The notes under the pieces are model-generated. The model was not told the origin of the DNA. It was given only the letters and a program-made list of their open reading frames with translations, and made no database searches. A DNA stretch of 62,396 nucleotides, filler included, from Dugesia japonica (lineage: Eukaryota): the NCBI GenBank assembly GCA_001938525.1. It is 6 parts of 6 records of this genome, joined end to end, with 100 filler letters (N's around TTAATTAATTAA, not from the genome) between each part and the next. Parts side by side here need not be neighbours in the genome. Positions count along the whole stretch, not along the records: positions 1 to 9,578 come from MQRL01544374.1; 5 more parts are not named here. One strand, written 5' to 3'. Numbering within the stretch: the stretch's first letter is position 1; each line of letters starts with the position of its first letter. A program made the position numbers and the translations under genes. This document shows positions 2-58,697 of the stretch, piece after piece.

Positions 2-331
2 CTATTTCATCAAGGAGGTGGTCATAGAGCCCGTAATTTAAATGTACAATACTTGATTTTATTTAAAAATAAAATAAATAAAACAGTGGCATATTTTCTA
101 GCAAAGCAGGCTTATCCTTATAATAGAAAATTTCTTATGGACTCATTCAAGGATGCAACAATAAATCCACATGAATATTTATTTCTGGATTTTACACAAC
201 AATGTCCAGATGAACTTAGAGTACGATCTGATATTTTCAATCAAAATGGAATTACAGTATANNNNNNNNNNNNNNNNNNNNNNNNNNNNNNNNNNNNNNN
301 NNNNNNNNNNNAATGGAATTACAGTATATAA
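2..331 (+). pseudogene. A32/FtsK-like packaging ATPase, C-terminal part
   Basis: LFHQG..R..NLNVQYLILFKN...LAKQ.YP...F.DAT..PH.YLFLD.....DELRVRS.IF matches the Maverick ATPase C-terminus; truncated by the window start and crosses an N gap. Confidence 0.88.
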
Positions 332-367
332 ACAATTGAACAATTAAAGTAATTATTTGATTATAAA

Positions 368-638
368 ATGTCTGAATTTAAAAAACGTTTTAGCTGATCA
401 GGTAAATGATAGTTGGATAAAGAAGAATAATTCAAAAATAAAAGGTAAAAAGCTGTCTGTAAAGAAAAAGAAACCAACAAAGCAGAATTCAATAAAGAAG
501 AAGACAAAAAAGAAGCATTCAAAGAAGAAGCATATAACAAAGAAACATGTAAAGAAACAGTTGAACGAGTTTAAAAAAATTTCAAAAAGCTTTGGAAAAA
601 AAATTTCAAATGTTAATGGAAAATGGGTCAAGATATAA
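368..638 (+). pseudogene. Small Lys-rich basic protein (putative DNA-condensing core protein)
   Basis: ATG at 368 needs a 1-nt frameshift to enter an extremely K-rich frame ending KWVKI; sits among virion genes. Confidence 0.5.
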
Positions 639-676
639 ACAATCTGATTGTTTGTATTTAAATAAACATTATAAAA

Positions 677-976
677 TTTAAACAAAGTCTTCCATTCTTT
701 AATATATTACTAAAGGTTCCAAAAGAATCGACAAGAAAATTATTACAGTTATTTCCAACATTTGTCATATATGATTTGCTAGAGATAATTGTGAATATTG
801 TTCGTGGTAACTTAATTATAAGTAAAAAGAAAAAACTAGAATTACAGCGTCATAAAAGATCATTGCTTTCAATTGTAAATACAAAGAATAAGAAATTGAT
901 GAGAAAAATATTACATAAACAAAATGGAGGCATCCTTGCTGCTCTATTACCAATCACATTAGCAGCATTAGAGTAA
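677..976 (+). pseudogene. Maverick small core protein with adenovirus pX-like C-terminus
   Basis: EIIVNIVRGNL..KHKR.L...ILHKQNGG|ILAALLPITLAAL: a protease-type xxGG site followed by a hydrophobic tail resembling adenovirus pX (MRGG|ILPLLIPLIAAA). Confidence 0.7.
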
Positions 977-1026
977 CTTGCCATCATTGTCAAGAATTTA
1001 TCTCAAATTTATATCAAATTATTGTT

Positions 1027-2043
1027 ATGGACAATATCGAAAAAATATAGACAAACCCTAAAAAATCCAGCAGTGTTTAAGGGAGTAGAGAAACTTTAAA
1101 ATGCAACACACAATTCGAAAAGCGAGACAAAAAAGTGGTAATCGATCCAGTGAGCGTACAGTCTGAACAAGCCTATGTTGAAAAGATTCCAAACAATACC
1201 GTAAAAAACCTTTGGTATTGATGATTTATGGCAAATAGATTTGACGGAAATAATACGTTTTTCAAAGATTTATAAAGGATACAAGTATATTTTGACATGT
1301 GTTGATGTATTTAGCAGATTTGCAAGAGTTGTACCAATAAAATTGAAATCTGCTAATGAGTCAAAACAATCTTGAAAGGGAGGCATTCAGATAATTTGCA
1401 AACTTATTTGGGAAAAGAATTTTATAATTCAAAAGTCAAATATATTATTAATCATCTCAAGATTAATCATTATTCTGTATTTCCGCAATATAAAGCTGCA
1501 TACGTTGAAAGATTTAATCGAACATTGAGATATGGATTGAAAAAGTACTTTGTACATACTGGTAATAAAACCTGGATACATGTATTACCGAAAGTAATCG
1601 ATAGTTATAATTATACAAGTCACAGAGGATTAAATAAAGCAAGACCCGTTGATATAACATCTGATAATTCAATGAAAAATTGTTGTCTTTTGAGACAACA
1701 ACCAAAAGTAATCAAGAAACCGAAATATAAAGTTGGTGATCATGTTAGAATCTCAAAAATATCAGCTTCACCATTCATCAAGAATTTCGATAGTAATTAG
1801 AGTAATGAAGGGTTTCAAATATAAAAAATCAATACCAAACAGAATTAAATCATGTATGTGATTAAAGATAATGAAGAAAATATCATTGTTGGAAAATTCT
1901 ATGAACAAGAATTACAAGTTATTCCACAACCAACAGCATTTAGAATAGAAAATATTATCAGACCAAAGGAAATTGGAAAGTATAAACAATTATATGTAAT
2001 GTGCCATGTATATGAAAGACCAAGTTGGATATCAGCATCTTAA
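1027..2043 (+). pseudogene. Retroviral-type (rve) integrase with C-terminal chromodomain
   Basis: DDLWQIDL, YILTCVDVFSR, GKEFYN, KAAYVERFNRTL, YKVGDHVRIS, GKFYEQELQ, FRIENII...SWI; disrupted by stops. Confidence 0.93.
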
Positions 2044-2074
2044 GTAGTAAATTAAACAAAGAAAAAAAAGAAAA

Positions 2075-3100
2075 ATGAGCAAATCGAATAATTTCTATAC
2101 ACTATTACCTAGTAATAGTTGTCCACGTATTCATCCTGATAATAAAGCAAGTAAATTCATTGTTGCAGTTGAAAATCCTATTTATTTGAATGAACAATGG
2201 GAAGTAACCTTGATGGACTTTACCTTTATATATTCTGCCTTTCAATTATATAACAAATCATACATCAAATATGTAACAAGTGATGATTATGAGAGAAATG
2301 TAGAAATCCTAATCAATAACAAAGAAAAATCATTGATGGTTCATGAGGTGATTTTGAGGTGATTGATGAAAGATCATTGTCAATCATATTAAAACATCAT
2401 GATTATGTTGTAATATTTGACAATTTAGAAAATGTCCAAATATTTGGATTTAATACTTTAATGAATAATATACAATCGGATTCTACCATACAATATCATG
2501 ACTTTAAAAACGATGATTCGATTAATGTTGTAAAAATAAAATTAGTGTTTTCAATAGAAACTATTAAATCTATATCTTTACAAAGCGAATATTACATATC
2601 GAATTTGGATCAATTTGGTAGTTTCAACACAAAAATGTAAAAGTCTGTTTTCAAAACACTTACTATAAAAAACAATGAACCATTCCGATTTTCGTTGTTG
2701 GAAAATGTTAAAAGTGTTACGTTCGATAATTCACTGGCAAAATCATTAAGATTAGACAAACAAACATATACTCGTGATTATAGAAATATAGACCACACTG
2801 AATTCAATGATGTTAAATATCCGAAATTAATCACTAATCCACATCAAATGTTCATCTATAGTAATTTTGTTGAACCTATAATTGTTGGTGATGTTAATGT
2901 TCCTTTGTTGAAATCTGTATGTTTGGAGAATTATGAAGATGATCAAGTAGCTCAAATAATAGTTAAGAATCCAATGTATTTACCAGTTGCCACTTCATGT
3001 ATAAACAATATAGAAATCAATATCAGAAGTGATAGTGGGGAATTAATCTACTTTGCTAAATACTAAAAAACTCATTCAACTCTACATTTTCGAAAAATAA
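2075..3100 (+). pseudogene. Minor capsid protein (penton, single jelly-roll)
   Basis: N-terminus FYTLLPSNS...PDN....F.......L...WEV.L; C-terminus MFIYSN.VEP.IVGD...PLL...NPMYLPV....IEI.I..D.G...LHFRK. Confidence 0.88.
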
Positions 3101-3550
3101 ATGTCTAATACCGATATTATTTAACTTTATAGTACTAGTCAAGCTCGTAAAGAATTGCCGTACTTTGTAGGAAAACAGTTTGGGTCTGGATGGTTGCAAA
3201 CAATTGGAAGATTTGCTTTGCATATTCTTAGACGTATTGGAAAATTCTATGAACAAGAATTATAAGTTATTCCACAACCAACAGAATTTAGAATAGAAAA
3301 GATTATCAGACCAAAGGAAATTGGAAAGTATAAACAATTATATGCAATGTGACATGAAAACAGCACATGATGTAATAAAATGATGTAAGCAAATATTTTA
3401 TCCTCTCTCAAAACAAATGGGATGATTAAATTTAAAGATTTTATGGCTTCTCCAGAAGTAACGAAAATAATACCAAAGAACAACATTATAAATGAATCTA
3501 ACATCAAAGGTTCTGGAATAAAAACTAAACATTCAAGTCTAAACAAATAA
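3101..3550 (+). pseudogene. pVI-like/core protein, interrupted by a 120-bp templated insertion
   Basis: ELPYFVGKQFGSGWLQTIGRFALHILRRIG...KTAHDV; homologous to the ORF at 58698-58970. Confidence 0.75.
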
Positions 3551-3579
3551 ATGAATGGCTATGGAACTATATTTGAAAA

Positions 3580-4972
3580 ATGATTTGTGGGAAAACTAAA
3601 CTTTGTATTTTTGATAGTCAAACACCTCAAGGGGTTATTGAATATGAATTATTTAAAGATGTGTTTCCAATGAATTCAATTTCTGAAAGTAGAAGGGATG
3701 TAGAGTTTTTTATAAATGGATCGCAAACTGATAATCCGGATTTGAATGATACATTATTGTATGTACAAGTAAGAGTTGTTGATAAATTTGGAAAAGACTT
3801 GGTTGAAAAGTTTGATATAGTACCAAGAAATTATATGTTTCATACTCTGTTCAAAGATATTGTTCTTTCATTCAACAATAACAAAATCAAAGGTGGTAAT
3901 GAAACTTATATTCAAAAGGCTAAGATTGAAATTGTTCTGAATTAAAATGGAGATAGTAAGAACATTTGTCTTCCCGCAATTGGTTATGAAAATAAAGATG
4001 ACAGACAAAAGTCAACTAAATTATCAAAGTCATTGTCTCTGTGCAATTCTTTGCAGCTGGACTTTATAAATCAACCAAAATATCTTATTCCTGGTGTTAA
4101 TGTATGTTAGGTAGATCTTCAATTGTTAAATCATTTTGCAAATCAGAATTCATATTGTTAGATATTTTTTATTTTACTACTACAAACTATATTTAATAAG
4201 ATAAAAATTATGAAATACAAGTATTTAAATATTAATATTTAGATATCTCAATTCCTATTAGGTGAGATTATTAATTAATAATTATTTCTTCATAATGTAT
4301 GCATTAGTTTGAATAGAGCATCCAATAGAATGGGTTTAGAATCTTCAACTGAAGAACCCAAATTTGTATTGCTCGATGCCAAACTGATGGTTTGAAGAGT
4401 TCCAGCTGAATCATCTATACTAATGGGTCATCAAATAGGACTTGCTAAGCAAAATGCTGTTTATTCAATAAGAAACAAGGAAATTGTAATTTATCCAATC
4501 AGTAAAAATAGTACAACGTTTTATAAGGAGCAAATCATTGGAGATCGTCGATTACCATACTTTTCGTTGATAATATTTAAAGCAGAGATCAACATAATGA
4601 ACACTTTAAAACATCAAGCTCGAATTTTGATCATTTCAATATCAAATACATAACTCTTTCAAAAAACAGCGATTATCGAGAATCATTTGTTCAAGATTTC
4701 GAAAATGATAATTACAGCACATCATACATATGATCAGTATTTAGAAATATGGGATATTTAAACAAAAATATGAATTGTGGAATAACACTTGAAGAGTTAA
4801 AAAACGAATATCCATTCTTTACCTTTGTACGTGCTCCGGATTTCGATATAATTCAGAGTCAATTGCTTCAACATGATAATATGACATTGGATATCAAATT
4901 TAGAACTGTTTTAACTACTACGGAGTTTTTGAAAACGAAATCCAAATTACATCAGCAGAGCAATACTAATGT
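3580..4972 (+). pseudogene. Major capsid protein (hexon, double jelly-roll)
   Basis: CGKTKLCIFD..TPQ..IE, VEFFING...DL.DT.LYV, QPKYLIPGVNV, YPFFTF...PD, LDIKF, YGVFENEIQI; frameshifts plus an insertion at 4107-4292. Confidence 0.9.
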
Positions 4973-5007
4973 AAAAAATCTCAATATCAGGAAAATAGTT
5001 GACCAAA

Positions 5008-5403
5008 ATAAAGTAAGTTTTGATTATTAATTTTGATTATTATTATTATTTTAATAGTTCAATTCAGATAATACAAATTGCTGCAAAATGGCTTGGATTA
5101 GAGTTTCTCGATGTGTGTCCATCGGATAAGCTTCCATTTATTCCAGTCAATAAAACCGTAATCGTCAATACTCAATCATTAAATCTCGTAGGAGATCATT
5201 GGTTAGCAGTGTAAAATAAGCCAGAAAATATACTGGTATTCGATCCATTTAGATTTTATTATCCACCAATGTTGGTCTCGCAGCTATAAAGATTATTAAA
5301 GTCTATTGTATTCAATAGAGTTTGATTTCAAGATTCATTTACAACAACGCCTGGATAGCATTGCTGATTTTGTTTGAGATACCAATATTGTTTTATAAAA
5401 TAA
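5008..5403 (+). pseudogene. Adenain-like cysteine protease; predicted 45-nt intron at 5013-5057
   Basis: D.LP, IVNT...GDHWLAV (His), VFD.F (Asp), FQ.....PG.HC..CL (catalytic Cys mutated). GTAAGT..TAATAG intron inside codon 2; start codon decayed to ATA. Confidence 0.85.
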
Positions 5404-5490
5404 ATGTTTTTAATTAAAAAATTATGTTTTCAATTGATTTGTGGTTATTTACTGGTAATGTAACACCAATGCAGTTCATATACAACTAAA

Positions 5491-5572
5491 TTATTATGTT
5501 GTGGTATTTTAAATCGAAAAATAATTAAACATATTACGTTGTAATATTTTTGAATTCATACACACATACATA
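5491..5572 (+). promoter_or_regulatory. Conserved non-coding motif cluster upstream of pPolB (element 1)
   Basis: TA(C/T)GTTGTRRTATTTT twice and ATACACACATACA; the same motifs recur at the equivalent place in element 2 (57174-57450, -). Confidence 0.5.
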
Positions 5573-5790
5573 GTGATTCGTAAAGAAATAATTATGTAAT
5601 AGCATACATGTTGACTAATTTACACACATTTAAGTAAAATGTAATTACTTTTATAATTTTTCACAGTTTTACAATTTTTAAAAAACAAAACTACGCTCAC
5701 AAATTTAGTTAGATTTTTTATCTATTTATTTTATTTTATAATTTTTATTATAGTACAATTAATAACAATAATAATACCAAGAAACAAACA

Positions 5791-8700
5791 ATGAAGCCAG
5801 TGATGAAGAATAATGAGGTAAAGTTATTCGTATTTTATTTGTAAATTTTATAATTATTATTTATAGAATATGACTAGAAATGATGAAGTTATCCAGATTA
5901 ATTTCAATGAGAATATGAAGACTAGAAATGACACTAATTTGATGCCTATGAATTTCGCTAATATGTAGATAATGAATAAAAATGATGCTCAAATGTCTTC
6001 CTTGGATATGTTGGAGATAAACACACCCCGTTAGTTTTTATTAATTTTAAATGAGATGTATTTAATTTTAATGATTTCTTTTCTTTTTACTAGTTTGTAT
6101 GTATCAAATATTTTTTTTATAGATTTTTCAAGTCTTTGTGATAACTATATTTTGATAATTGATAATAATAACTATATTTGGATAACTAAATTTTTAATAA
6201 TTTTTGATAATTGAGAAACCTTTATTACTAATGAAATAAATACGTTTGATAATAATAACCATATTTTAGATAATAATCCTATTTTATGATAATAATAGTA
6301 ATTATTATTTTTGATAATAAGAATTTTATTTTTATAATAATTATAATAATAATATTTATCATAATAACACTTTTAATAAGAATATTTATAACAAAATTTT
6401 ATTTTCAAATAAATATTTTCTCGTAGCTCTTATATTTTGATTAAACTTATACTGATACTTAGACTGTTCTGTTGTGATCATTACACAGTCTTTTATGCTT
6501 ATCGATTAGTTCCATCATCATTTGACTAGGGTTTCCATATATTTGTTACATGTGAAGTGTTGTAACATTTGTCAATTCTTCAACAACATGCTCCCTTATT
6601 TGCTTTTTGAATATTTTAAATAATAAATTAAAATAAAAAAGATTAGTTAAATAAATAAATTACAATTTTAAAACTATTTTACAGTATAATAAATTGAATT
6701 CGAGTGCAAACATTAAGAAATTATGCAATGATGTAATTTTTTATCACTGTTTCCAATTAGGTCATTACATTTTCTAACCTTTTCTTTTCTTTTACATCAT
6801 TTTCTGACCTTTACTGTCATTTTTCTAAACCTTAATAATCATAATAATAATATACATAATAACTTTTATATTTTAAGTCATTTTGATAATAATTATCACA
6901 TTTTTAATCATAATATTTTTATAATCTTTAGTAGTAATATATCACATTTTAATAGTTTTTATTTAATAATATGTTTTACCTTATATAAATATGCTATTTT
7001 CTTTAGCAACATGCACACAATATAAACATTATTGTGCAAGTTATGTCCACAAAGGAGAATGCCATAAGACTATGGAGAAATATTATGATATGAAATTCTC
7101 TGGGACAAAGTACTACATATGTCCTACATGCAAAACATTAAGTGTAGGTACATATACCAGTTTTTATAAAAAGCATTCACACCACATTAATCAATTCGAA
7201 ACGATTAAAAAACGAGTATTATTAAGAGACATACTTTCAGAGACTGATATAGGTGCTCCACTAACTAAGAGAGTAAGACAAGAACCATTAGTAACTGATG
7301 AAGCAATAGTTAATATTATAGAAAATGTTTAAAATAATGCTATAGTAGAAAAAGATATAGTATATATATATATATATATATATAGTTTTTAAGAACTATT
7401 AGGACAAAAATGGATGTAATTATGATGGAATAAATGAAGACGACAAAATTATCGAAAAATATTTTGAAGAAGAGGAAGAGTTTTTAAGAGAAATACAAGT
7501 TGGTGGATCATTAGATGAACCTACTATTGAATCAGATTTGTATGGGTGTCATCAGATACTTAAGTTAAATGTATCTCATCACAATAGTATTGAAATAGTA
7601 TTATCAAAAGTGTTAATAGAGAAATTGTTTCAAATAATTAAAGAATGAAAGGAATTAAAAATTCAATTTGGAATTAGCGTAGAATTTATTAGAATTTATT
7701 AGAGACGTGGATATTAAAATCTGTATGATATCAAATTGAGCTGTCCATCTCAGTGATACATTTGTCAAGGAAGGTATAAGAAATTTAAATGAGAAGATTG
7801 TAGTAAGGTGTGAATTAAGTAGTAGTTGGATTCCTAGCCGCATTCTTGAAATTAACTTTAAAATTACAAAAGCTAGTAATATTAGTAGAATTTCTAGAAG
7901 TAGCCATATTCCTACTCCTAAATACCTTGTCAGAAAACAAGCCATAGTTAATGTTAATAATAATGACAACATGTGTTTTATTTATAGCATTCTTGCAGTT
8001 CTTAAGCAAGATGAAATCGAAAAGAAAATCGACATCGTGTTGCAAAATATAAGGATTATATGTCAGAGTTAGTATTTGATGAGTTGGATATGCCAATGAA
8101 ACTTCTACATATCCCGAAATTTGAGAAACAAATCCAGCATATGCAATCAATGTTTTTTTCCTGGAACTCAAAATGATATAGTAATATATGATATAGGAAC
8201 TAAGATGATATAGTCATGAAGCATCCAAACTTGGATATTATTTATCGGTCAAAAGTGGAAGATGGATAGAAAATTAACCTTTTGCTGCTCGAACACGGCG
8301 ATAATTATCATTACAATGATGTAATGGATTTAAATAGGTGGATGAATAAAGATACTAAAAAGGATGGTGTGCGAATTCAGTCAATCTGGTGCCAAAATTG
8401 TTTAAATGGATTAAAGAATAATATTGTTTTAAAGGCACATGAAGCACTTTGCAGCAAAATTTAGACAGGTATAACTATGCAAAAATGCCTACAGAAAAAG
8501 AATTAATATTCAAAGAATACTCGAAAACGATGACTCCACTTTTTGGGATTTATGCTGATTTTGAGTCAGTTTTAGAAAAGAATCTAATTTATCATCAAAA
8601 ACATATTCCCATTTTAGCTGGACTTTTATTAGTAAATAATTATACCAACGAATTTAAATCCAGTCAATTTCTCGGAACAGAATGTTTTTTCGAATTTTTA

Positions 8701-9487
8701 TTGAAATTACAAGAAATTAGTCAGCACATCGTATACCCATATTATATAGAAAATAGCAAAAAGAACATGGAAATAACTTTAGAAGAAGAAATATCATTCA
8801 TACATCAATATATTGTTATTTATGTAACAAATCAATATTGCAACCAGTTCGTGACCATGATCATTTTACCGGAAAATATATACATCCAGCATGCAGTAAG
8901 TGTAATATAAGCAGAAAAATTAGATATGAATTACCTGTTGTATTCCACAATCTGAAAGGATATGATCTCCACCATATTCTCAGGTATGGTCTCAATCAAT
9001 TCCCAGAATGATATATCTCATGTATTCCTATAACGACTGAGAAGTTCTTATATCTTACTGCTCATCCGTCGAAAACAACAATAAGATTCATTGTCTTGTA
9101 CCAGTTCATAAATTTATCATTAGCTGCTGCTGTCCAGTCAATTAAAACCCCTCCTTTGAAATGAAAAGAGTTTAATGATGATCGCATTATAAAATCAAAA
9201 GGGACTTTTCCATATGATTTCGCCACAAGTTTAGATGTTTTAATAAAAACAACGTCGATGCCACCGAAATAAAATCACATGAGTGAAAAAGAATATTTAA
9301 AGGCAGTTGAACTTTGAGAGATCACTAATTGTAAAAACCTACTAGATTATGCGATGGTTTATCTTAAACTCGATGTCTTTTTGTTGGCTGATTTCTTTCA
9401 ACAATTTTGAGCCAAGTCTAAAGCTTAAAATAAGCTGGAATCATTGAATTTTCTCGTTATACCAGGCATGTCATGGGCATCTGCATT
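5791..9487 (+). pseudogene. Protein-primed family B DNA polymerase with spliced 5' leader exons (5791-5817, 5867-6029; main exon from 7007)
   Basis: Main body shows QVGGSL, SSWI, IVNVNN.DN.CF.YSILA, YADFES (ExoI), VRDHDHFTGKY, PVVFHNLKGYD (ExoII), KG.FPY, YLKLDVFLLAD (ExoIII) and PGMSW. It stops before the polymerase motifs. Leader exons are joined by phase-compatible GT-AG introns. Confidence 0.9.
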
Positions 9488-9578
9488 AGTAGTAGGGAAA
9501 TGACGACTTGCAGCTAGTATGGTAGCTCCAAACTCAGAAAATGGCATAAATAATAATACTACAACAAATTTCGTTAGC

Positions 9579-15476: not shown

Positions 15477-16943
15477 TTAGGTAATTGCATTAATTCTCGC
15501 TGTTTGTTTTAATTAACTAACTTATTAAATATTTCAGCGATAATTTAAATCAATCGGTAGGATTTGTTAAGTATTAATATTTAAATGTTAAAATAATTAT
15601 TTAGTTAAGTTGTACAGCAAACGAAAACCGATTCATTTAATATGACTAGTTTTATTCCAAAAAATGCCCATTTGCGGGAGGCGTTGTTTTTTGGTTTTCA
15701 TCTCAAAAGAAGTGCTGCAGAAAGTCATAGGATGCTTTCAGATCCTTATGGCAACCCTGCTCTGTCTGAAACATGCTGCCGAGAATGGTTTCGGCAATTC
15801 AAAATGGGTGACTTTGATTTGCAGGATAAATAATTGACATCCAGGGCAACCTAAGCGCATTTCAGATGAAGATTTATAATTATAAAGGAGTTGATCAAGG
15901 ATGGATCCAAAACAATTGAAACAATGACAGAAATCATTAATGTATTAGGTCTAGAAGTTAATTTTGTGGATTTTCTATGTTTAAATATTTCATTTTATAA
16001 ATAATAATTTATGAATTTTTAAAAATAAATTTTAGATAAGTATTATTCAAGCTTTTAAAAACATTAATTGGTATGATTTGTAAAAGTTTAATTTTATTTT
16101 GATTCTCATTTTAGTATTACNNNNNNNNNNNNNNNNNNNNNNNNNNNNNNNNNNNNNNNNNNNNNNNNNNNNNNNNNNNNNNNNNNNNNTCGGTAAATGG
16201 TTGCCTCATCAATTGAAAGAAGCAGATATCGCAAAACGATTAGACATTTGTCAGTCGCTGCTCAGCAGGCAAAGGCAAAGTCCTTTTTACATCGCATTGT
16301 TACTTGTGATGAAAAATGGATTTCTTTTGAAAATCCAAAACTAAAAAAATCATGGGTGAAGCCTGGTCAATCCAGAAAATCAACACCAAAACGAGACTTG
16401 CATGGAAACAATGTGATGTTATCAATTTTTGTGGATCAAATAGGGATTATTTATTTTGAGGTTCTGAACAAACGTGAAACAGTTGATGGTATGCGTTATC
16501 AACAACAATTAATAAAATTGAGGCAAGCATTGCACGAAAAACGGCCAATAGACTGTTCCAATAGACATGAGACTGTGTTATAACAGCATGATAATGCTCG
16601 ACCTCACGCTTCGGTTTTAGTGAGGAATACGATAGCAGAATTCGGATGGGAAGTTTTACCTTACCCGCCATACTCACCAAACATCAACGCAACATGGTCT
16701 TTGCGAACGGCACTTCAACAATCATTATGATGTCCAGAAATGGCTTGACTATTGGGCAAATTCCAATGAAGAAAAAAATTTTTATCTTGGAATTCATCTG
16801 TTGCCAGAAAGGTTGAGAAATGTTGTTAGCAATGATTGACACTACTTAGAATGAGATGTTATGTAAAAATAAATGTATTTGGAGTTTTGATTTACATTTC
16901 TTCTTATTATTAAAAAATAACGTGAATTAACGCAACTACTTAA
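15477..16943 (+). mobile_element. Mariner (Mos1-like) element, full-length but decayed
   Basis: TA-flanked TIRs TTAGGTAATTGCATTAATT / AATTAACGCAACTACTTAA; HTH (AAESHRML..CREWFRQFK.GDFDL), WLPHQL, TCDEKW, HDNARPH, PYSP. A second mariner-like TIR (TATTAGGTCT) is nested at ~15943. Confidence 0.93.
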
Positions 16944-19054: not shown

Positions 19055-21051
19055 GCTAGTTTTGGGGCTATCGGTGCAGTCCTTAGTCAATGCAAAGAGG
19101 AAAAGGAAGTGGTAATAGCGTATGGATCTAGACATTTGACAGCTCATGAAAAAAGATACTGTGTGACAAGGAAAGAACTATTTGCTATACATGAATTTGT
19201 ACAACTATTCAAACAATATCTGTATGGAAAATAATTTCTAGTAAGAACGGACCACAAAGCATTGGTGTTTCTGAACAACACAAAAAAACCAATCAGCCCA
19301 CAATTCTAGACGTAGATGGCGAATTTGGGAGAGTATGATTTTGAAATCAAGTTTAGAAATGGAGAAGAACACAACAATGCGGATGGGTTGTCGAGGCTAA
19401 ATGAAATTTTTTGTTCACAATGTAGCATGAAACACAGACGCAAAAGGAGAAAAGACGAGAGTGAAACATATCAATGGAATTCAACATGAGACCGATATAA
19501 TTACAATGATTCGACAGGCTCAGACAGAAGATTCAGAAATACAAAGTTGTGTAGCAATGTTGCAAGAAGAAGGTTTAGAGACTAAAAAGAGTGATCAAGG
19601 AAGTTACTCGAATAAATTGAAGCATGGATTGAAAATAGTGGATGATTTGTTAGTTGTGGAAAGAGGAAATAAATTTTTGTTAGTAGTTCCAACAAGTATA
19701 GTTGATAAAGTTATAAAAAATCATGAAGATTTATGTCATGTAGAAAGAAAAAAGCTATTTTCATACGCACAAGATGGTTATTTCTGGCCAGGGATGCGCG
19801 ATACAATTAATACAAGTATTGATAAATGCGAGATGTGTGCCAAAAGGAAAGTAGTACAAAGTCATACAAAAGAATCACTTATACTATGGAGAAGCCAAAA
19901 TTTTTTAGAACAAATTGTAGTGGACATAGCTTTTATGGAACAGAGCAAGTCTGAAAAGAAATATATATGGTGGTAATTATTAATCGTTTTAGCAAACTAG
20001 TCAGCTTATCTGTAGTTTCAAAAATGGATGAAGAGACGATTTATATTTTTATATATACGATATATAAACCGTTTTGGTAAACCAAAATCCATTTTGACTG
20101 ACAGGGGTAAAGTGTTTGAAAGTCAAGTGATGGCAAAGAAACTAGGAAAATTTGGAATTGTAAAGAAATCTAGTTCTCCGTATCAACACCAGTCTAATAA
20201 TTTGGTAGAACGGATGATCCAAACAGTGAGGGCTAAGATTACGATATCGATAAAAGGAAAATGTAATGAGAAAGATTGGGACATATTTTTACCGAGATTA
20301 GAATTTAGTATTAATGCTACAATACAAGAGTCAATAAAATTCTCTACTTTCAAAATCGTATTTTCTCGAAAGATAATTCTGCATACCAAAGAGGAAACGC
20401 TCTCAAAAGGAAGGACTGGCAGAAAAGAGATAGTGCGACATAATTTGAAGAATGTGGCACAGAAAAAGAAAAATGTCGAGAAACATGAGTGAGGACAAAG
20501 ATACCTTAAAGAGGGAGAGTGGGTATTAGTCCAAGTAGAACCACACAAACAAAAGAAAAACGGTTTGCTGTATGAAGGCCCATACCAGATAGTGAGATTT
20601 GTATCAGCACATCAAGTTGAAATGAAGATTCCAAATGATTTGCAAACCAGGCGAATAGAATGGCTAAAAAGATGGAAAACGTTTTGAAGGAGCGAAGAGT
20701 TATGGAAATTCGAAATATTTTTGTTTGAATAATACGAATTAACGTTATAATTTATATTTAATAAAGTGTCTATTCTTAGTTGTTATTGAAATATGATAGA
20801 GGACAAGGATATTGTAACTGTTTTCTTTTCAATTTGTACTTTTTTAAAAAATTTTTTTGAATTATTATTCATTCTTGGTAAAATAAAATGTTTAAACTTT
20901 TTCATCTCCATTTAGGGAATAAAGAACTACTTCGAGTAAATAAAACTTGGAAAAGGTTGATTAATGATCTGGAACGACGAAAGTGTGTATTGGATAAATA
21001 TTCGGATTTTCTTTCATGATTTTGATATTGATTATTTTAACTGTGATAACT
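19055..21051 (+). mobile_element. Ty3/Gypsy 3' half: RNase H, integrase, GPY/F domain and 3' LTR (20698-21051)
   Basis: ASFGAIGAVLSQ, YCVTRKEL, RTDHKAL, NADGLSR, HHCC zinc finger, TDRG..FES, HQSN.LVER, EGPY. A purine tract precedes an AGTTAT...ATAACT-bounded LTR. Confidence 0.9.
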
Positions 21052-23754: not shown

Positions 23755-24006
23755 TCAAATCAGAAATTTCTTCATCTGTTCTATCTTCAATAGTATCCAT
23801 TTCCCAAATAAATCTGGCGGATTTCCTAAATTTATAGCTGCAAGTGATTTCTTCATATATTTTTCTTCTGATTCTTTTATAAATTCTTCTTTTAATTCTT
23901 CTTTAAATTCTTCTTTTAATTCTTGTTTAATTTCTTCTTTTAGAGTATTTTGTGATTCTTCTTTTAAAATACCTTTTAAAATAAAAACAAAAGAATTATC
24001 ACTCAT
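23755..24006 (-). CDS. Small Glu/Lys-rich ORF with (L/F)KEE tetrapeptide repeats
   Basis: 83-aa ATG ORF between the integrase and ATPase of element 3. Confidence 0.45.
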   Translation of the reverse strand: MSDNSFVFILKGILKEESQNTLKEEIKQELKEEFKEELKEEFIKESEEKYMKKSLAAINLGNPPDLFGKWILLKIEQMKKFLI

Positions 24007-24015
24007 TTTAATTTA

Positions 24016-24835
24016 TTAATTTAAAATTTTTAAAACAGTTTTCTGAAGTTCATTACTATAAAATCTACCCAAAATCTTTTCCTTATCTAAACCAGTAATT
24101 CCATAAGTAAAAGATTTTGTTTTATATAATTTTGTTACTACAAATATTTCATTTGTCCATTTAGCTGTAAATCCTTTTTCAAATTTATATTTAAATATTC
24201 TAACTCGGTCTCCAATTTTAAATTTTTGGTTAAATACTGTATGATAATTTTCAGTATTATGTTGATTTATTATTTCTTTTATGTTTTCAGGATTTTCACT
24301 AGCATATTTTAGCAATGTTTTTATACTAGAGTGAATTGTATTATTATATTCATCAACAACCTTTTGTAATAAATTATTATTCCATTTTTGATTTCCAGCT
24401 AAGTTAAAATATTTCCACATTTTAGTTTTTAAAGTTCTAATAAATCTTTCAGCAAAAACTGATTTTCCTTCATTTTCTGTATGATATAATTTAATAACAT
24501 TTTCTTTAGGAAATTTATCAAAATACTTTGATCTAATTTCTTACTCTTTATCAAACCAAATTTTGCTTGGTACTCCGTAACTAGTTTCAAATATATTTTC
24601 AAAAGCATCTTTTAATGATTCTTGATTTTTATTAGTCATTGGAACACAAAAACCAAATCTAGAATATTAATCAATAGAAACTAAAATATATCTAAATCCA
24701 TCAGTTGATTTTTAAACCAAATCAATAATATCACAACCCCAAGTATTATTTTTTTCTTTTATTATTACTTTTAGGAAATGTTTCGTTTTTCTATAATCTT
24801 TATGAAGTTCCTTGGCACGAAGTTCATTTGCAAGT
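24016..24835 (-). pseudogene. rve integrase of element 3
   Basis: ELHK, WGCDIID, FRYILVSID.YSR, PSKIWFD, AERFIRTLK, YNNTIHSSIK, FKIGDRVRI, WTNEIF, GRFYSNELQK; no chromodomain seen. Confidence 0.92.
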
Positions 24836-24889
24836 AAGGTTTCTTTATTTTTAAAATTATTATCATTACTTGAGTCTTTGTAGCGCTCA

Positions 24890-25355
24890 GACTTACACCA
24901 GCACCTAAAATAATTTTACCTTTCATTGCTAATCTTACCGAAGTCCGTTGTATTTTTTCAGAAGTAGTTGGATTTTCAATTTTGTTCAAATCATGAATTA
25001 AATTTACATCTGCAATATGTCTATCTCTTAAATCTTCTGACTTGTTAGATAAATCATGTTTTAAAGCTGCTTCATCAACTCTATTGATTGGTTCTTATCC
25101 TGGTTTCGGATTATTATTTTCATCTAATTTTAAATCTAATCTTGTTTATGAACCTGTATAATTATGTTTAAACAAATATCTTTCACCTGGATATTTTTTC
25201 CAAGTAAATGGTTTTAAAATTGCACTTGTTAATTTAGAAGATTGAAGATCTCCACCTTCAGGTTGAGCTTTTTTTAAAAAAATTCGTAAATGTCTAGCTT
25301 TATTTTTTCTAAGTAATATTTTGTTACAATTTTCACAAATACATTTATTATCCAT
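24890..25355 (-). pseudogene. Parvovirus-type phospholipase A2 protein with N-terminal Zn-finger-like motif
   Basis: CENC..RHL, EGG|D, HNYTGS*TRL, PINRVDEAALKHD, RHIAD, KIILGAG; two in-frame stops. Confidence 0.85.
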
Positions 25356-25440
25356 TTTATATATTTTAGAATTAGATAATTTTAGGACTACTTGCATAGT
25401 CAAAATATTAAACAAAATCCACATCTCGTTTATTTTCAAT

Positions 25441-26730
25441 CATAACAATTTTAGAATAAGTTAATTTCCTTTAAATATGTTTTTCTTTCAATACACCAAT
25501 ATAAAGTTCCTTTAAAATAACTATCTTTAGTTATATGTAAAGTGTCATCTACATTATTATTAATATTTAATTTATCATCTTGAGAACTAACATCAAAACA
25601 AAAGATTGGATACAAATTACCAAACTCTTATAATGATAATTGTGGTTCAGTGAAAAAGTCTTTACAACAATTTAAATAACTTAAAAAAAGGAAAAATTAT
25701 TTCATTATTATCAATATTAAATTTACATTCATTTATAGGATAATATGTATTATTTAATTGTATTTGAATACTTTTTAGAGAATAGTTTTTAGTTACATCC
25801 ACTTTTAGTTCTCCTTTTTACAATTTTTGATATTCTTTGAATAAATAAATTATTATTCTTTTGATAAGAAATCTCTGAATCTTTTACACCAATAAATATA
25901 TATCTTGGTTTATAAGCTAAATTAATTAATTTTAGTAAATAGTAATTTCCTGAATCTAAAGTTGTTTTTGAAACAATTCTATATAAAAATGAAACTTGAA
26001 TAGATTTAATTGTATTGATTTTTTCCCATAGATTTACTTCCATTTTTGGTAGTAATCTACATTTTGGAATATGTAATTCTAGAGTTGTCAATTTTAAAGT
26101 AGTAGTTGTATCTTTATCACCATAAAAGAATAATTTATCATTAATTTTTCTATTATATGTAAGTTCAATCATTAAATTATATAATAATCTCTTAAAACTT
26201 TGAGAAATCTAAATAAATTTTTTATTGGAAAATAACCTTCAAATTTCTTTTTAATATTATAAAGTTTCTTTCTTTTATAGCAACATAGATTTGCTCCCCA
26301 GCTAAAAACTTCTAAATCTTGTTTGCATCTGGAATCTATCCTAATAATTCTCCATATATATATTTATAGGCTGAACTAGTTGTAATAAAATTCAACATTG
26401 TTGATGATATTCCAGGATCATTAATTATTTCTAAATCTGACTATTCTAACGGTAATTTCATTGATTTAAATAAACTTGGAAACCAATTATTTTCCAAAGT
26501 TATTTTATCTTTGTGAGCATTTGTAACATCAATCTCTTTTTTAAAATATAACATTGAATTAAAAATGTCTAATGGATTTATGGATTGTAAAGATTGAAAA
26601 CCTATATCACCAGAAGACATTAAATTATTAATTGATCCAGATGAAGGTGAAATTCGCAAAACATCATTCTTAAGAAAAAAGTGATGAAAATTAATATTAT
26701 TATCAATATTAATTTTGTATTCATTTTCTT
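25441..26730 (-). pseudogene. Major capsid protein (double jelly-roll) of element 3
   Basis: LENNWFPSLF, IINDPGISSTM, FPIKNLF.F, LELHIP, KPRYIFIG, IQLNNTYYP, YPIFCFDVSSQ. Confidence 0.85.
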
Positions 26731-26970
26731 TAGTAATAAAATAACAAAAAAAAATTATTTATATTTTACTTGTATCTATATTCTATTTGTAGTTGTGTTT
26801 ACATTTTTATTTTTATTTGCATTTGCGTTTGCGTTAGTTTTTTACTTATAGTTTTATTTGTAGATGTTTTGTTTACATTCTGTATTTCTGTTTATGTTTA
26901 TGTTTTATTTGTGTTTGAATTTTTGTTATTAACCATTTCTATTTTTTATTTTTTTAAAATTTTATATTTT

Positions 26971-27093: not shown

Positions 27094-28900
27094 TGTAGGT
27101 GAACAAAAATGGCTGAACCTTGGAGGAAATTCATTGCTTATACAATACTATTAGATGATCCTTGACTCATTAATATTATATGTTTAAGTTAAATTATTCA
27201 GACTTAGTATAATTAATGAAATCCATATATTATTTGTATTTTGAGTAAACCTATTATCAAAAATATTATTAAAATTATTTTCATACATTGTTTCAATAAC
27301 AGTTTTGTTTGAATTCCTTACTATTACATTACCTTCTCCGACATTTACAGTTCGACGGAGCAAATTCATCAAGGTCCGTTAGCATCCAATCGAGTCCGTT
27401 CATAATTGAATTTATCGATCAGCTTGTGTAGTTTTAACTAGACTATGCTCGATTACAGTATGTACATCTCTGGCAGTAATGCTTACAACTGTTCATATTC
27501 GGTCTCAAATATAAATTGCTAGAACTGTATAACCTTTATAAGATACAAACAGTTAGTCATCAATGTCAATATTTGGTTAGACTCAGATCCGCAAATTGGT
27601 AAAGAATTCAAAGTCAACTGTTATTAAATGAATATTTAAATTAAATCATTGCAGGAAATCATTACTTATTATCATTTAGGAAAAACATTTTCATTTAATT
27701 TAAATAAAAATAAATCCTTATGTTGGGGAAAATCAAGATCAAAATTGACACTCACATGCATACTCAACAAACAATTCACATGCACACATACAAAACGAAT
27801 AACAATAATCAGAATTCAAGATCAACATCCAGCAAATCGTCAATGAATTTAATTAATTCTCCGAACAATCATTTTACATTTCATCTTTATTAATTTATGA
27901 TTTGAACAATCATTTTACATTTTATTTATTGTGTTTTTAGCATAAAATTTTGTTTGCTTAGATTTTATTTAGTCATAAATTAATGTTTCTTTTACTATTT
28001 GCTTTTGTTTTATTGGGTTATTATCATTGATCGTAATTTTGTTTATTTCACAGTCCTCATTTTTTACGTATAGTTTTCATACCTGGAAGAAGGTTAACGT
28101 TTTGATTATTATAGTTACCAATTCTTATGGGCATGTTTCCCTCTTTTGGAATAAAACATCCAAGTACTATTGATATATTAAACTTTTTGCTAATTGATTA
28201 TTTCGTTCAAAAAATAGGTATTTTCGCTACGGAATCCTAATTTTACAAGCATTATACATTTGAATGAATATTCTATTTTTGCGTTGGACCTTAGATATAA
28301 GTCATTATTTGCTTTTTCATTATTTATGGGAGTTGATTTTGATAATCTATTATTTTCTAAATCTATAACATACCCTGTTAATTTTCATAATAAATCCATC
28401 CCCAAAATACAATTTTGTACCCCTTGATCTACAACTCGGGATGGGTGTTGTATATTTTTGTTTTCTAAAATAATGTTACACTCTATTATCTCTTTTATAG
28501 GTAGTTTATGGCCCATGAATGATTTTAATTCTTCTGACAGTCTCGTATCAAGATTCTCTTGTTGTTTTTTGTTAAGAAAAGTCTCTTTAATTATTGAGCA
28601 TGCTGCTCCAGTAGCTATTAATGAAGGTATAATATATCCATTTATTGATATTATCATAGTGGGCCTAGGAGTGTCCCCATTTATTACATATATTTCGTGT
28701 GATTTTTGGGGTGGAGTATACCTTGCCAATTTTTCATTTTCAAAATTTTATTTTATTTCGTTAAGTTTGTGTTTCTGATTGATATGGTTTATTGTCATGA
28801 ATGTCAAATTCTACATTTTCCTCTCTGTTTGATAAGTCAATTGTGTATGGTTGATTTTGTCTTTCCAATTTGGTGATTTTATCGTAGTGTTTTTGAATGA
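27094..28900 (-). mobile_element. Deleted LTR retrotransposon: aspartic protease remnant (28385-28729) and 3' LTR (27094-27328)
   Basis: ISINGYIIPSLIATGAACSII...CILGMDLL (DTG decayed to ATG); purine tract GGAGAAGG then a TGTA...TACA-bounded 235-bp segment. Confidence 0.7.
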
Positions 28901-54571: not shown

Positions 54572-56940
54572 TACCTCCCATCTTGGTGGCATTGTTGTTA
54601 TTTCAACCAAACCTTCTAAACTGGTTGCATAATTATAAGGAAATATCCCTTTTGACATTTTTAATCTGCTGTTTCTAAATTCATTTGTTGTCAAAGGTGT
54701 CTCTTTTAAGGATTTGACTGCTGCATCCAATGAAGAGTTTATGAATTGGTACGAGTCAATATATCTGATTGTAAATTCTTTCAGATGTCCAATGAGGCAT
54801 AGGAATCTTTCTGATGTTGTTGGTATACATGATTTGGTCCAATGCGGAAATTTATTTAATCCATACTGTAATATATGGTGAAGGTCATATCCTATTAAAT
54901 TATGGAAGACTACCGGTAATTGATAATTGATTCTTCTGCTTAAATTGCATTTATTACAGACCGCTTCTATATACTTACCTGTAAAATGGTCATGATCCAT
55001 AACTGGATTACACAAATGACATATTGTACTATGCTTAAATTCCATTTTTGGTCGGGGTCATAATTCTTTTCTTTTTTCTTCTTTAATATAATATGAATAT
55101 ACTATATTATTACCGATTTCCTCCACTGCCTTTAGGAATTCATATCCGCATTCATTTACAATAAACTGGCTGTATTTGACTTCATTAATAAAATTATTCA
55201 CCAACAACAGTCCAGCTGAAGCAGGTAAGTTTGTCTGGAAATGCTTTTCATCGCTTGGTAATACTGATTCGTAATCAGCATATATAACAAAGGGTGGAGT
55301 TAAAGTTTTGGAGTAATCTTGAAATTCTAGATTCTTTTCTGTTGGCATCTTGTATAATGTGGTGCCCGTCTGAATTTTCTCACAAATTGGCTCATAAGTC
55401 TTGTAAGCCATAGTATCCCAGAATCCATTAAGACAATTTTCACACCAAATTGATTGAATTCAAACACCACCCTTTTTAATATCTCTGTTCATCAATCTAT
55501 TCAAATTCATTACGGCAGTGTAATGCAATTTGTTGGCATCTTCCAATAACAATAAATTGATCTTTTCTCCATCGCATTTAGACCTATGTATAATGTATAA
55601 ATTTGTTTGTTTCATGATAACGTCATCATCTTCATCCACTGATTGAGGATTCCAAAAGAAAACATTAATTGATAAGCCCGGGCTTTGCTTTTCAAATTTT
55701 GGTGTATTTGTGAGCTTAATTGGCATGTTTATTTCATCAAATACAAGCTCGGACATATATTTGTGATAATTAGACACCCTACATTTATTATTTCTAACTT
55801 TATCTTGTTTGAGAATAGCCAAGATACTATATATAAAACATTTATTGTTCCTGTTATGAATATTTTAAATTGCTTTTTTCTTATAAATATTGACTGTGGT
55901 AGTTATATAACTATGACCAGATAGCTTACTGATGTCTGATACTTTGGGGATTTGAAAATTTATTTCCAATATGCGGCTCAGTATCCAACTAGATCCGAGT
56001 TCGCTTCTTATAGCACTCTTCTCATTTAACTGTTTTATTCCATCTTTGAAAAAAGAATCACTCAATGGAACAGCTCAATTCGATAATCTACAAGTTTTGT
56101 TTCGTCTTCTTTTTCGAATTCGACATTTATCACAAATTGGATCTTGACATTTTTTAAATCTTCAATAATTTTGAATAACTGTTCAATCAATGAGTTTGGA
56201 AAAACGATTTCTATCGTATTCCACTTCGAAACATTCATTTTTAATATCTGGTGACATTTATATAAGCCACTTTCTATTATCACATATTCATTGAGGGAGC
56301 CACCAACTTGTACTTCTTCTTCATCCATAAAACTTAGCTAACTATATCGTCTTCATTCATTTCATCTATGATTTGAAAGTCGGTCCAATGATCTTCAATT
56401 ATCTGAGATTTTAAACTGCCCTAAGTGTTCTGCATGCAAGCTATATAAGTCTAAATATTCACCTATTCTTATATACCTACATGATGGACATATGTAATAC
56501 TTTTCCTCATAAAAGGATTGTGCATAGTATCTCTCCATAGTACTATGACAGTCGCCTTTATGAGTCCGATTTGTACAATAATGTTTGTACATTGTACAAC
56601 ATTCTGGAAAAAATAAGTTTATTACATTTTATAAAATTATTTAAATTTCATTTAAAATAAATTATAAAATAAAAACTAACTTTTATCATAAATAGGAGCA
56701 GCAACAAGAGCAGCAATAACAGAATGATTATAATTCTAAAATAAATAGTTTTAACAACTATGAAGTGTTNNTAATAAATTTACCTTAATTAAACTCTTTC
56801 TCTTGATACCTCTACCATCTTGATTTGAATGATTATAATTCTAAATTAAATTAATAATCATTAAATAATAAAACTAAATATACATTATCAATCATTAAAA
56901 TTGACGAATTCTTATTTCTATTACCGTTTATATTGTTCAT
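54572..56940 (-). pseudogene. pPolB of element 2 with microexon leader (56884-56943, 56784-56840, 56681-56735; main exon from 56603)
   Basis: YKHYC/YYICP.C block, QVGGSL, GSSWIL, YADYES, CHLC..DHDHFTGKY..CNKCN, PVVFHNL.GYD, KGIFPY. Leader exons are in frame across 43-, 48- and 77-nt GT-AG introns. Confidence 0.9.
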
Positions 56941-57940
56941 AACCTAAAAACAATTAATTAACAATAATGAAAATCATTAGTTTACCAATTCTTTGGTCAA
57001 CAATGTTCTCAATATGCTTTGATTGTTGATAATCTAATAAATATATAAAGGAGATACAAAAAAAAACATACTTACTTATCAAAATTGTCGCTTTTAAAAA
57101 ATGTTTTATAAAAATTATGAAAAATTTCAAAAAGTATCTACTTTTATAATATTAAAATAACTTTTCTACCCCTTTGTATGTGTGTATCATATATTTTATA
57201 TCCCCATTAAATTATTTTTGTGTGTATTTAATTTTTCTATCTCCAATGTATGTGTTTATCATACTTTTTCTATTCCCTCAGTAAGTGTATATCAAGAAAT
57301 TTTAAAATACTTCATAAAAAACGTAATATATTTAGTAAATTTTAAAATACTTAATTAATTTTTAAAATACTACAACGTAGTATATTTAATTGTAACAAAA
57401 AAAATTTTTTTTTGATAAAATAATTTTAAAGTACCACAACGTAGTATATTGTTGCATTTACAAAATTATTAGTCATGAAAATAACAAAAGGCATGTTTTT
57501 TATTAAGGTCAATTAACTGCTTTATAGTTTTATGATTTTAAAAAATTTAACTATTTTTAAATTAAATAGAAATAAATCAACTGTTTTCATATAATACATT
57601 TATTTACATACAACATATACATTTTCAACTACNNNNNNNNNNNNNNNNNNNNNNNNNNNNNNNNNNNNNNNNNNNNNNNNNNNNNNNNNNNNNNNNNNNN
57701 NNNNNNNNNNNNNNNNNNNNNNNNNNNNNNNNNNNNNNNNNNNNNNNNNNNNNNNNNNNNNNNNNNNNNNNNNNNNNNNNNNNNNNNNNNNNNNNNNNNN
57801 NNNNNNNNNNNNNNNNNNNNNNNNNNNNNNNNNNNNNNNNNNNNNNNNNNNNNNNNNNNNNNNNNNNNNNNNNNNNNNNNNNNNNNNNNNNNNNNNNNNN
57901 NNNNNNNNNNNNNNNNNNNNNNNNNNNNNNNNNNNNNNNN

Positions 57941-58046
57941 ATATACTCCCAAACACGACGATCCCAACAATTTTGATCCAATTTGATTAATCTAAAAACA
58001 ACTAATAAAGTAAAAATATGAAAATTAAATAAAAAACTTACTTCAT
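57941..58046 (-). pseudogene. Adenain N-terminus of element 2 with a 40-nt intron (58002-58041)
   Basis: ATG AA|gtaagt...tattag|T TGT TTT TAG ATT AAT CAA ATT reads MNCF*INQIGSKLLGSSCLGVY; the rest lies in the N gap. Confidence 0.75.
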
Positions 58047-58078
58047 AATGTGTTTATTTGATTATATTAGATATTGTT

Positions 58079-58624
58079 TACACTAGTACTGTTCTATTAG
58101 CATTTATTTGTATTTCGCTTTCAAATACTCCATATAATATAATATAAGTCAACAATTTAGCAAATTTTATATCCAATCTCAAATTTCCTTGTTGAGGTAA
58201 TTGACTCTGATTAATACCAAAATCTGAATACCAAAAGTACAAATGTAAAAAACGGATATTTGCTTTTAAATTCTTTAAGTGTTATTCTACAATTCATATT
58301 TTTATCTAAATATCCCATATTTTGAACAACAATTTGCATATATGTTGTACTATAATCACCGTTTTGAAAATCTTGAATATATGTCTCTCGATAATCAATG
58401 TTTTTCGATAAAGTTATGGAAGTAGCATATAAATGTTGAAATGTTGAAGTAGAGGTTTTATATTTACCATTATATTGATCTCCATTTTGAAATGCAATTA
58501 AAGAAAAGTTGGGTAAACGGCTCTCACCAAAGATTTGCTCCTTATAAAATGATGTACTATCTTTACTAATTGCAAACGCAACAATTTCCTTCTTTCTTAT
58601 CAGATAAATTGCATTTTTCTTATT
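58079..58624 (-). pseudogene. Hexon C-terminal third (element 2)
   Basis: NAIYLIRKKEI..FYKEQIFGESRLP..MGYLDKNMNC..YPFFTF..GNLRLDIKF..YGVFESEIQI; aligns with 4450-4972. Confidence 0.92.
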
Positions 58625-58697
58625 GATGATAACGGAAAATTCATAAGGTTTCCAAAAGATACAAAAACACATTTAATTTTACATTTTAGAAATATTA

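What the first reader, a model, noticed from the sequence alone, without database searches (positions are those of the whole stretch)
5008..5060. Conserved spliceosomal intron in codon 2 of the Maverick maturation protease
Element 1 reads AT(A) AA|GTAAGT-45 nt-TAATAG|T TCA ATT CAG ATA, giving (M)NSIQIIQI. Element 2 (58046-57990, -) reads ATG AA|GTAAGT-40 nt-TATTAG|T TGT TTT TAG ATT, giving MNCF*INQI. Position, phase 2 and donor are identical while the intron interiors differ, and splicing yields the usual MNxxQI adenain start. Maverick core genes are generally described as intronless. Inference: protease expression depends on host splicing, which could act as a late-gene timing switch.
Basis: partly seen in the sequence, partly recalled or inferred. 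Interest (0 to 1): 0.72.

Follow-up and report, generated by a model that had tools for sequence, protein, structure and literature searches.

The report
Tiny intron in Maverick protease gene
A family of virus-like jumping elements in a likely flatworm genome has its capsid-maturation protease gene split in the second codon by a very short, conserved GT-AG insert that is most likely a host-spliced intron, although the core genes of such elements are described as intron-free; splicing was not seen in the RNA tested.

Summary
Observation confirmed. Two decayed Mavericks carry a phase-2 GT-AG segment in protease codon 2 (5013-5057, 45 nt; 58041-58002, 40 nt). 61 of 81 scored genomic copies keep ATG+GT+AG; only 4 of 81 have an unspliced in-frame ATG. 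Ten uninterrupted metagenomic relatives (50-71% protein identity among representatives) have the same junctions, with interiors no more alike than shuffles; two members of the same clade lack the segment precisely. The clade carries further candidate short introns, five more in element 2. The host is likely a planarian-type flatworm. Its 31 predicted short introns are 40-61 nt, against 37-41 nt for this one. No spliced read was seen in four raw RNA runs with low junction depth. Verdict: very likely a real, old intron of an intron-bearing Maverick lineage. The late-timing-switch idea is untested, and intron-less alleles show the intron is dispensable. Not found in print in 8 searches; this scan has noted intron-bearing Polintons before in other genomes.

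The parts
5008..5012 (+). Protease exon 1 of element 1 (start-codon position reads ATA, then AA); broken copy
   Evidence: ATG at this position in 77 of 81 scored copies
5013..5057 (+). Predicted spliceosomal intron, GTAAGT...TAG, 45 nt, phase 2, 11% GC
5058..5361 (+). Protease exon 2 (adenain, peptidase C5 family), with in-frame stops
   Evidence: uninterrupted relative L033 hits PF00770; family profile hits adenovirus proteinase 1avp at E 6.5e-5
3565..4974 (+). Major capsid gene of element 1 (broken), ending just upstream of the protease start
   Evidence: tblastn with the L063 gene; stop read
2..3090 (+). Packaging ATPase (2-259), integrase (992-2073) and likely minor capsid (2066-3090) remnants of element 1
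   Evidence: L063 queries typed by Pfam (ATPase, rve); capsid labels rest on gene order and recalled motifs
7526..9488 (+). PolB remnant of element 1
58042..58046 (-). Protease exon 1 of element 2 (ATG AA)
58002..58041 (-). Predicted intron of element 2, GTAAGT...TAG, 40 nt, phase 2
57941..58001 (-). Start of protease exon 2 of element 2 (TAG at codon 5; N gap follows)
58078..58627 (-). 3' part of the major capsid gene of element 2
56604..57075 (-). Five further candidate GT-AG introns (42, 42, 43, 48, 77 nt) in a gene upstream of polB in element 2
   Evidence: GT..AG kept in 75 of 90 copy-by-intron cells; indels 99 over 252 nt inside vs 45 over 434 nt outside; multiples of three 10 of 99 vs 20 of 45
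54578..56101 (-). PolB remnant of element 2
   Evidence: (PF03175)

Best explanation
The segment is most likely a genuine, old U2-type intron in codon 2 of the adenain gene of a Maverick (Polinton) lineage, which the host spliceosome would have to remove before an active element could make its capsid-maturation protease. Shown: conserved ATG-RA|GT and AG|T junctions, free interior and length, a stop in the unspliced frame, precise intron-less alleles, and many other short GT-AG segments in the same clade. Inferred: the element is transcribed by host RNA polymerase II in the nucleus; the intron was gained once at or near the base of this clade; it is kept because damage to its splice sites knocks out the protease, while precise loss is tolerated (L065/L068). 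It most likely works as an ordinary constitutive intron and not as a timing switch. The two copies in the window are dead.
For: Own genome: 61 of 81 scored copies (87 examined, 6 dropped as truncated upstream) keep ATG, GT and AG together; lengths fall evenly over the three frames (29/27/25); only 4 of 81 have an upstream in-frame ATG without splicing. A 26-letter acceptor-form pattern has 194 matches and the junction-spanning form has 0. Of 41 metagenomic loci, 10 have ATG-RA|GTAA...AG|T at the same place (37-47 nt), 2 (L065, L068) read Met-Asp-Ser contiguously there, 3 are truncated, and none of the 26 more distant ones shows the pattern by eye. Interiors of 8 representatives: 0.63 identity observed, 0.63 shuffled, 28 pairs; exon-2 proteins 50-71% identical. 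All intron-bearing rows plus L065/L068 form one clade, support 100/100. Of 121 homologous proteins, 26 start Met-x exactly two residues before exon 2, and 28 end their leader in Ser, most of them after an F/Y/I/L-rich stretch as expected from reading through AG|T. Other candidate short introns in L061, L063, L065, L066, L068, L073, one backed by a contiguous homologue in L067. Host short introns are 40-61 nt.
Against: No spliced junction was listed in four raw RNA runs laid on L033 (6-26% of each run read). Reads carrying intron sequence are present (5 of 18 in X22 and 2 of 6 in X24 show an indel inside it), but junction depth was only about 1-10 on the likely sense strand and both strands were covered, as expected for passive transcription of relics. 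The intron (37-41 nt in 75 of 81 copies) is shorter than 30 of the 31 host introns predicted here, or overlaps only the shortest (40 nt), so efficient splicing in this host is not shown. Genomic copies are related by descent and were picked by similarity, so the 61 of 81 is not independent evidence. Gain versus loss for L065/L068 is unresolved (AU p 0.089).
Confidence: 0.82

Rival explanations
1. The intron is real and also regulatory: being at or below the host's minimum size, it is spliced poorly or only late, and so limits or delays protease relative to capsid protein.
For: 37-41 nt against 40-61 nt for 31 predicted host introns. It is the shortest candidate intron in each of L061, L063, L066, L073 and by 1 nt in L062. 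Strong GTAAGT donor. Only intron-retaining reads seen. Splicing and a leader control late genes of adenain-bearing adomaviruses and adenoviruses (10.1101/341131, passages).
Against: Precise absence in L065/L068 and in all distant relatives; 43-47 nt in L062/L064/L067/L070; many other introns in non-structural genes, so introns are a general trait of the clade; no time-course data.
Confidence: 0.15
2. The segment is not spliced locally: the protease is made from another start (an upstream in-frame ATG, a downstream ATG, a far upstream leader spliced to the AG, or the flatworm trans-spliced leader), and GTAAGT is part of some other signal.
For: No spliced read. An open unspliced frame from an upstream ATG exists in 4 of 81 copies. 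Adomavirus late genes use acceptors just upstream of their ATG.
Against: 77 of 81 copies have no unspliced in-frame ATG and segment length is not tied to frame. In L061, L063, L066, L071 the first in-frame ATG without splicing leaves only 33-55 residues. An AUG-ending spliced leader (recalled) joined at this AG gives the wrong frame. Intron-less alleles have Met exactly two codons before exon 2. A far leader does not explain the fixed ATG-RA|GT 37-47 nt upstream.
Confidence: 0.08
3. A chance or post-insertion feature: an AT-rich insertion or introner that entered one copy after integration and was amplified, with no role in active elements.
For: Introners populate Polinton-like elements of dinoflagellates, mostly after integration (PMC12166617, abstract and passages).
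Against: Same position and phase in uninterrupted elements whose proteases are only 50-71% identical and whose intron interiors are unrelated; at least five own-genome families share it.
Confidence: 0.03

Closest known systems
Vertebrate Mavericks (PMC8097293) and nematode Mavericks (10.1101/2022.07.12.499685)
   Same: Core gene set: polB, rve integrase, packaging ATPase, two capsid genes, adenain directly behind the major capsid gene.
   Different: Those core genes are reported as intronless (passages); in nematode Mavericks introns are in host-derived cargo. Here a core gene is split, the protease is short (about 114 aa predicted), and further candidate introns lie in and upstream of polB and in accessory genes.
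Introner-containing Polinton-like elements of dinoflagellates (PMC12166617)
   Same: Spliceosomal introns inside Polinton-type elements.
   Different: Those are transposon-made introns, mostly gained after integration (abstract). This one is short, unrelated in interior sequence between families, and shared by divergent uninterrupted elements.
Adenovirus and adomavirus late genes (adenain L3-23K / LO8)
   Same: Homologous protease behind the major capsid gene; late genes expressed by host splicing (10.1101/341131, passages).
   Different: There the splicing described joins a leader to acceptors upstream of the ATG; here the intron interrupts codon 2 of the coding sequence.

Membership tests
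U2-type spliceosomal intron | GT donor with GTRAGT-like consensus and YAG acceptor | tested here: met
U2-type spliceosomal intron | Removal restores the family's reading frame and N-terminus; precise intron-less alleles exist | tested here: met
   L065/L068; 26 of 121 homologues start Met-x two residues before exon 2
U2-type spliceosomal intron | Interior and length free to change while junctions are kept | tested here: met
   0.63 observed vs 0.63 shuffled; lengths 37-47 nt in all three frames
U2-type spliceosomal intron | Size within the host's spliceable range | tested here: inconclusive
   37-41 nt vs predicted host introns 40-61 nt, n=31
U2-type spliceosomal intron | Excision seen in RNA | tested here: inconclusive
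   no joint listed, low depth; contigs likewise
U2-type spliceosomal intron | Branch point and lariat | not tested
   no call
Maverick/Polinton | polB, rve integrase, packaging ATPase, capsid genes and adenain in one element | tested here: met
   the capsid genes of L063 had no Pfam hit, so their labels rest on gene order and recalled motifs
Maverick/Polinton | [quoted passage not shown] | tested here: inconclusive
   none found; element 1 runs off the window and the contigs are partial
Maverick/Polinton | Intronless core genes (as described in the literature) | tested here: not met
   this finding; it marks a variant lineage
Adenain (peptidase C5) | His, Asp, Gln and Cys catalytic residues in order | tested here: met
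   H47, D62, Q91, C98 invariant in 23 sequences; PF00770; 1avp
Introner (transposon-derived intron) | Many near-identical copies at unrelated sites, with terminal repeats or target duplications | not tested
   no search for the interior at other sites; interiors differ between families

The most novel reading that the evidence does not exclude
An intron-rich lineage of flatworm Mavericks has kept, across roughly 45% protein divergence, an intron at the lower size limit of the host spliceosome in codon 2 of its maturation protease, and uses its slow or conditional splicing to set when and how much protease is made during particle assembly.
Probability: 0.15. Interest if true: 0.75.

Novelty: new variant of a known kind. 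Interest (0 to 1): 0.52.

Why it matters
Published surveys state or assume that Maverick/Polinton core genes have no introns and find these elements with ORF or prokaryotic gene callers. A lineage with conserved introns is mis-called by such tools: many database proteins here have false N-termini read through the intron. The intron also argues that these elements are expressed in the nucleus with the host spliceosome, and that the protease has stayed under selection, which bears on the open question of whether animal Mavericks make virions. It gives a simple RT-PCR marker for true expression of a late gene, as opposed to read-through of relics.

Tried and rejected
No RNA holder on record was listed by the run search; this is no evidence on expression. 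Contigs of four runs (X20, X4, X3, X7; RNA only by guess or unknown) showed no joint at the predicted intron (L033 1517-1555); the joints listed had non-GT-AG ends; contigs cannot show absence. IMG/VR viral contigs gave no relative. Fusion of major capsid and protease by a donor at the capsid stop codon (G|TAA): possible in own-genome families 1 and 2 and in L073, absent in L061-L063, L070, L071: rejected as not conserved. The next AG in exon 2 of element 2 as acceptor: wrong frame, and other copies read CAG there. A shared poly(A) signal for capsid and protease mRNAs: no consistent AATAAA after the protease stop (0 of 10 intron-bearing metagenomic loci within 150 nt), so this model has no support here. 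Terminal inverted repeats not found. The intron scan listed none in L076 and L084-L086, but one search shows intron-like segments behind the L076 protease, so the scan's blank is filter-dependent. The Atlas look-up of the host SET gene did not name the host. PMC1450207 (Kapitonov and Jurka 2006) and PMC11426020 (Koonin 2024 review) are not held, Repbase could not be searched, and no supplements were read: an earlier mention of such introns there cannot be excluded.

Full report
Observation. The window is AT-rich (26% GC) eukaryotic DNA with two decayed Mavericks in opposite orientation. Element 1 has ATPase, integrase, two capsid genes, protease and polB remnants at 2-9488 (+); element 2 has capsid, protease and polB remnants at 58627-54578 (-) (queries from the uninterrupted relative L063, typed). 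At the protease start, element 1 reads ATAAA|GTAAGT...TAATAG|T (segment 5013-5057, 45 nt) and element 2 ATGAA|GTAAGT...TATTAG|T (58041-58002, 40 nt); unspliced, codon 3 is TAA in both. The downstream frame is an adenain: an uninterrupted copy hits PF00770, the family profile hits adenovirus proteinase 1avp at E 6.5e-5, and His, Asp, Gln and Cys are invariant in 23 sequences. Both window copies are broken by stops.

Copies in the same genome. Three searches gave the 30 best loci each (150, 40 and 150 matches listed, lower bounds). After removing duplicates, 87 were examined and 6 dropped as truncated upstream. Of 81, 77 have ATG, 73 GT, 73 AG and 61 all three; 75 have a 37-41 nt segment; lengths fall 29/27/25 over the three frames; 4 have an upstream in-frame ATG without splicing. 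At least five sequence families share the arrangement. An exact pattern for the acceptor form matches 194 times and the junction-spanning form 0 times, so no intron-less copy of these families was found. These copies share descent and were picked by similarity, so this shows the state of the families, not selection.

Divergent relatives are the stronger test. A scan of metagenome contigs gave 41 loci. Ten (L061-L064, L066, L067, L070-L073) have an uninterrupted exon 2 and ATG-AA or ATG-GA|GTAA...AG|T at the same place, 37-47 nt long; L065 and L068 read Met-Asp-Ser-Leu-Gln-Ile contiguously right after the capsid stop; three are truncated; the 26 more distant loci show no such pattern by eye. 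Exon-2 proteins of eight representatives are 50-71% identical, while intron interiors of eight representatives are no more alike than shuffles (0.63 vs 0.63, 28 pairs). In a 17-row capsid-plus-protease tree, all carriers and L065/L068 form one clade (100/100); the place of L065/L068 inside it is open, and a tree with the carriers alone as a clade is not rejected (AU p 0.089). So there was one gain, followed by a precise loss or preceded by an early split. Among 121 homologous database proteins, 26 begin Met-x exactly two residues ahead of exon 2 (including two close relatives, P0005 and P0025, that begin Met-Asn-Ser; whether these come from spliced RNA or intron-less DNA could not be checked), 28 have a leader ending in Ser, mostly AT-rich read-through, 18 start inside the gene, 34 have other starts and 15 could not be anchored.

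The intron is one of many. A scan of 14 metagenomic loci listed candidate 40-51 nt introns in accessory genes and in the 5' region of polB of L061, L063, L065, L066, L068 and L073; one is backed by a contiguous homologue in L067. L065 and L068 thus lack this intron but have others. Element 2 itself has five more candidates upstream of polB: in 19 other copies GT..AG is kept in 75 of 90 cells, indels are about four times denser inside than outside, and 10 of 99 inside against 20 of 45 outside are multiples of three (counts are relative to element 2, and AT-rich runs are indel-prone).

Host. COX1 in the genome reads sensibly only with AAA=Asn and ATA=Ile, NCBI table 9. With the 26% GC this points to a planarian-type flatworm (inference; table 9 is shared with echinoderms). 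Predicted short introns in host chaperonin genes are 40-59 nt (n=10; 11 junctions tried) and in myosins 43-61 nt (n=21). A planarian paper gives a short-intron peak of 45-85 nt (PMC13594981, passages). The Maverick intron is therefore host-like in composition but at or under the lower edge in size.

RNA. Four raw RNA runs of the same species were laid on copy L033 at 80% likeness: 33, 562, 396 and 493 reads were laid, from both strands although the libraries look stranded, junction depth was low, intron-retaining reads were present and no joint reached the listing threshold of 3 reads. This is a weak negative, as expected if the reads come from relics transcribed passively and only one of five or more families was used as reference. 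Splicing is therefore not shown.

Mechanism. Shown: junction conservation, frame logic, intron-less alleles, clade-wide candidate introns. Inferred: nuclear transcription by host polymerase II, removal by the U2 spliceosome, a Met-Asn-started protease of about 114 residues, and retention because splice-site damage is lethal to the protease while precise loss is neutral (confidence 0.82 that the intron is real; it most likely acts constitutively). The timing or throttle reading gets 0.15: its only support is the short length and the unspliced reads, and the intron-less alleles and longer variants speak against necessity.

Comparison with what is known. I read passages ('find') of 15 papers and no supplements. 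PMC8097293 reports no introns in intact vertebrate Mavericks, in agreement with Kapitonov and Jurka 2006; 10.1101/2022.07.12.499685 calls nematode core genes intronless, with introns in cargo; PMC9356565 and PMC10120064 assume no introns in such elements; PMC12166617 reports introners in dinoflagellate Polinton-like elements, mostly post-integration; 10.1101/341131 shows spliced late transcripts in adomaviruses. The other passages read had nothing on spliceosomal introns in core genes. Seven searches on Polinton/Maverick/adintovirus terms and one on planarian intron length showed no report of a conserved intron in a Maverick protease; two key papers were not held. The scan's own notes hold several intron-bearing Polintons from other genomes (unchecked, seen after my own result); none matched this protein or place.

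Verdict. A real feature and very likely a real intron: a new variant of a known kind (an intron-bearing Maverick lineage), well supported by comparative evidence, unconfirmed by RNA, with no test behind the regulatory claim. Interest 0.52.

Noticed in passing
L063:1639-2097; L071:1182-1604; L076:3757-4161; L084:5373-5756: TATA-binding-protein-like gene in several related Mavericks (PF00352, E 2.7e-17; tblastn); no match in the window.
   Followed up: partly
L062 and L064 after the protease match; L065, L067, L076: A second candidate GT-AG intron (about 43-55 nt) at the 3' end of the protease gene, with the same short last exon in L062 and L064; donor-like GTAA(G/T) at or just after the protease stop in L066, L068, L069, L073.
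   Followed up: partly
L063:1224-1266 (+), L063:12041-12089 (-) and upstream; L061, L065, L066, L068, L073: Candidate 40-51 nt introns in accessory genes and in the 5' region of polB.
   Followed up: partly
window about 5819-5866 (+): Intron-like GT...AG segment in a small frame between the protease and polB of element 1 (by eye).
   Followed up: no
window about 24000-26800 (-): A third, different Polinton-like relic with helicase-like, phospholipase-A2-like and double-jelly-roll hits below Pfam cut-offs and a weak integrase match.
   Followed up: no
window 37306-41304 (+): Host MLL/trithorax-type exon, 1332 codons open, with PHD, FYRN, FYRC and SET domains.
   Followed up: partly
window 16197-16580, 19431-20489, 28388-28747: Mariner-type transposase, and LTR-retroelement integrase and protease fragments.
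   Followed up: no
Own-genome family 1 copies (L002-L030): A second ATG lies between the capsid stop and the protease ATG, mostly opening a short or out-of-frame upstream ORF; absent in family 2.
   Followed up: partly
L061-L073 and own-genome copies: The donor lies 6-13 nt after the capsid stop in 10 of 10 metagenomic carriers and 36-42 nt in most own-genome copies, inside the distance at which a downstream junction would not trigger decay of a read-through capsid mRNA (recalled rule); may just reflect compact gene spacing.
   Followed up: partly
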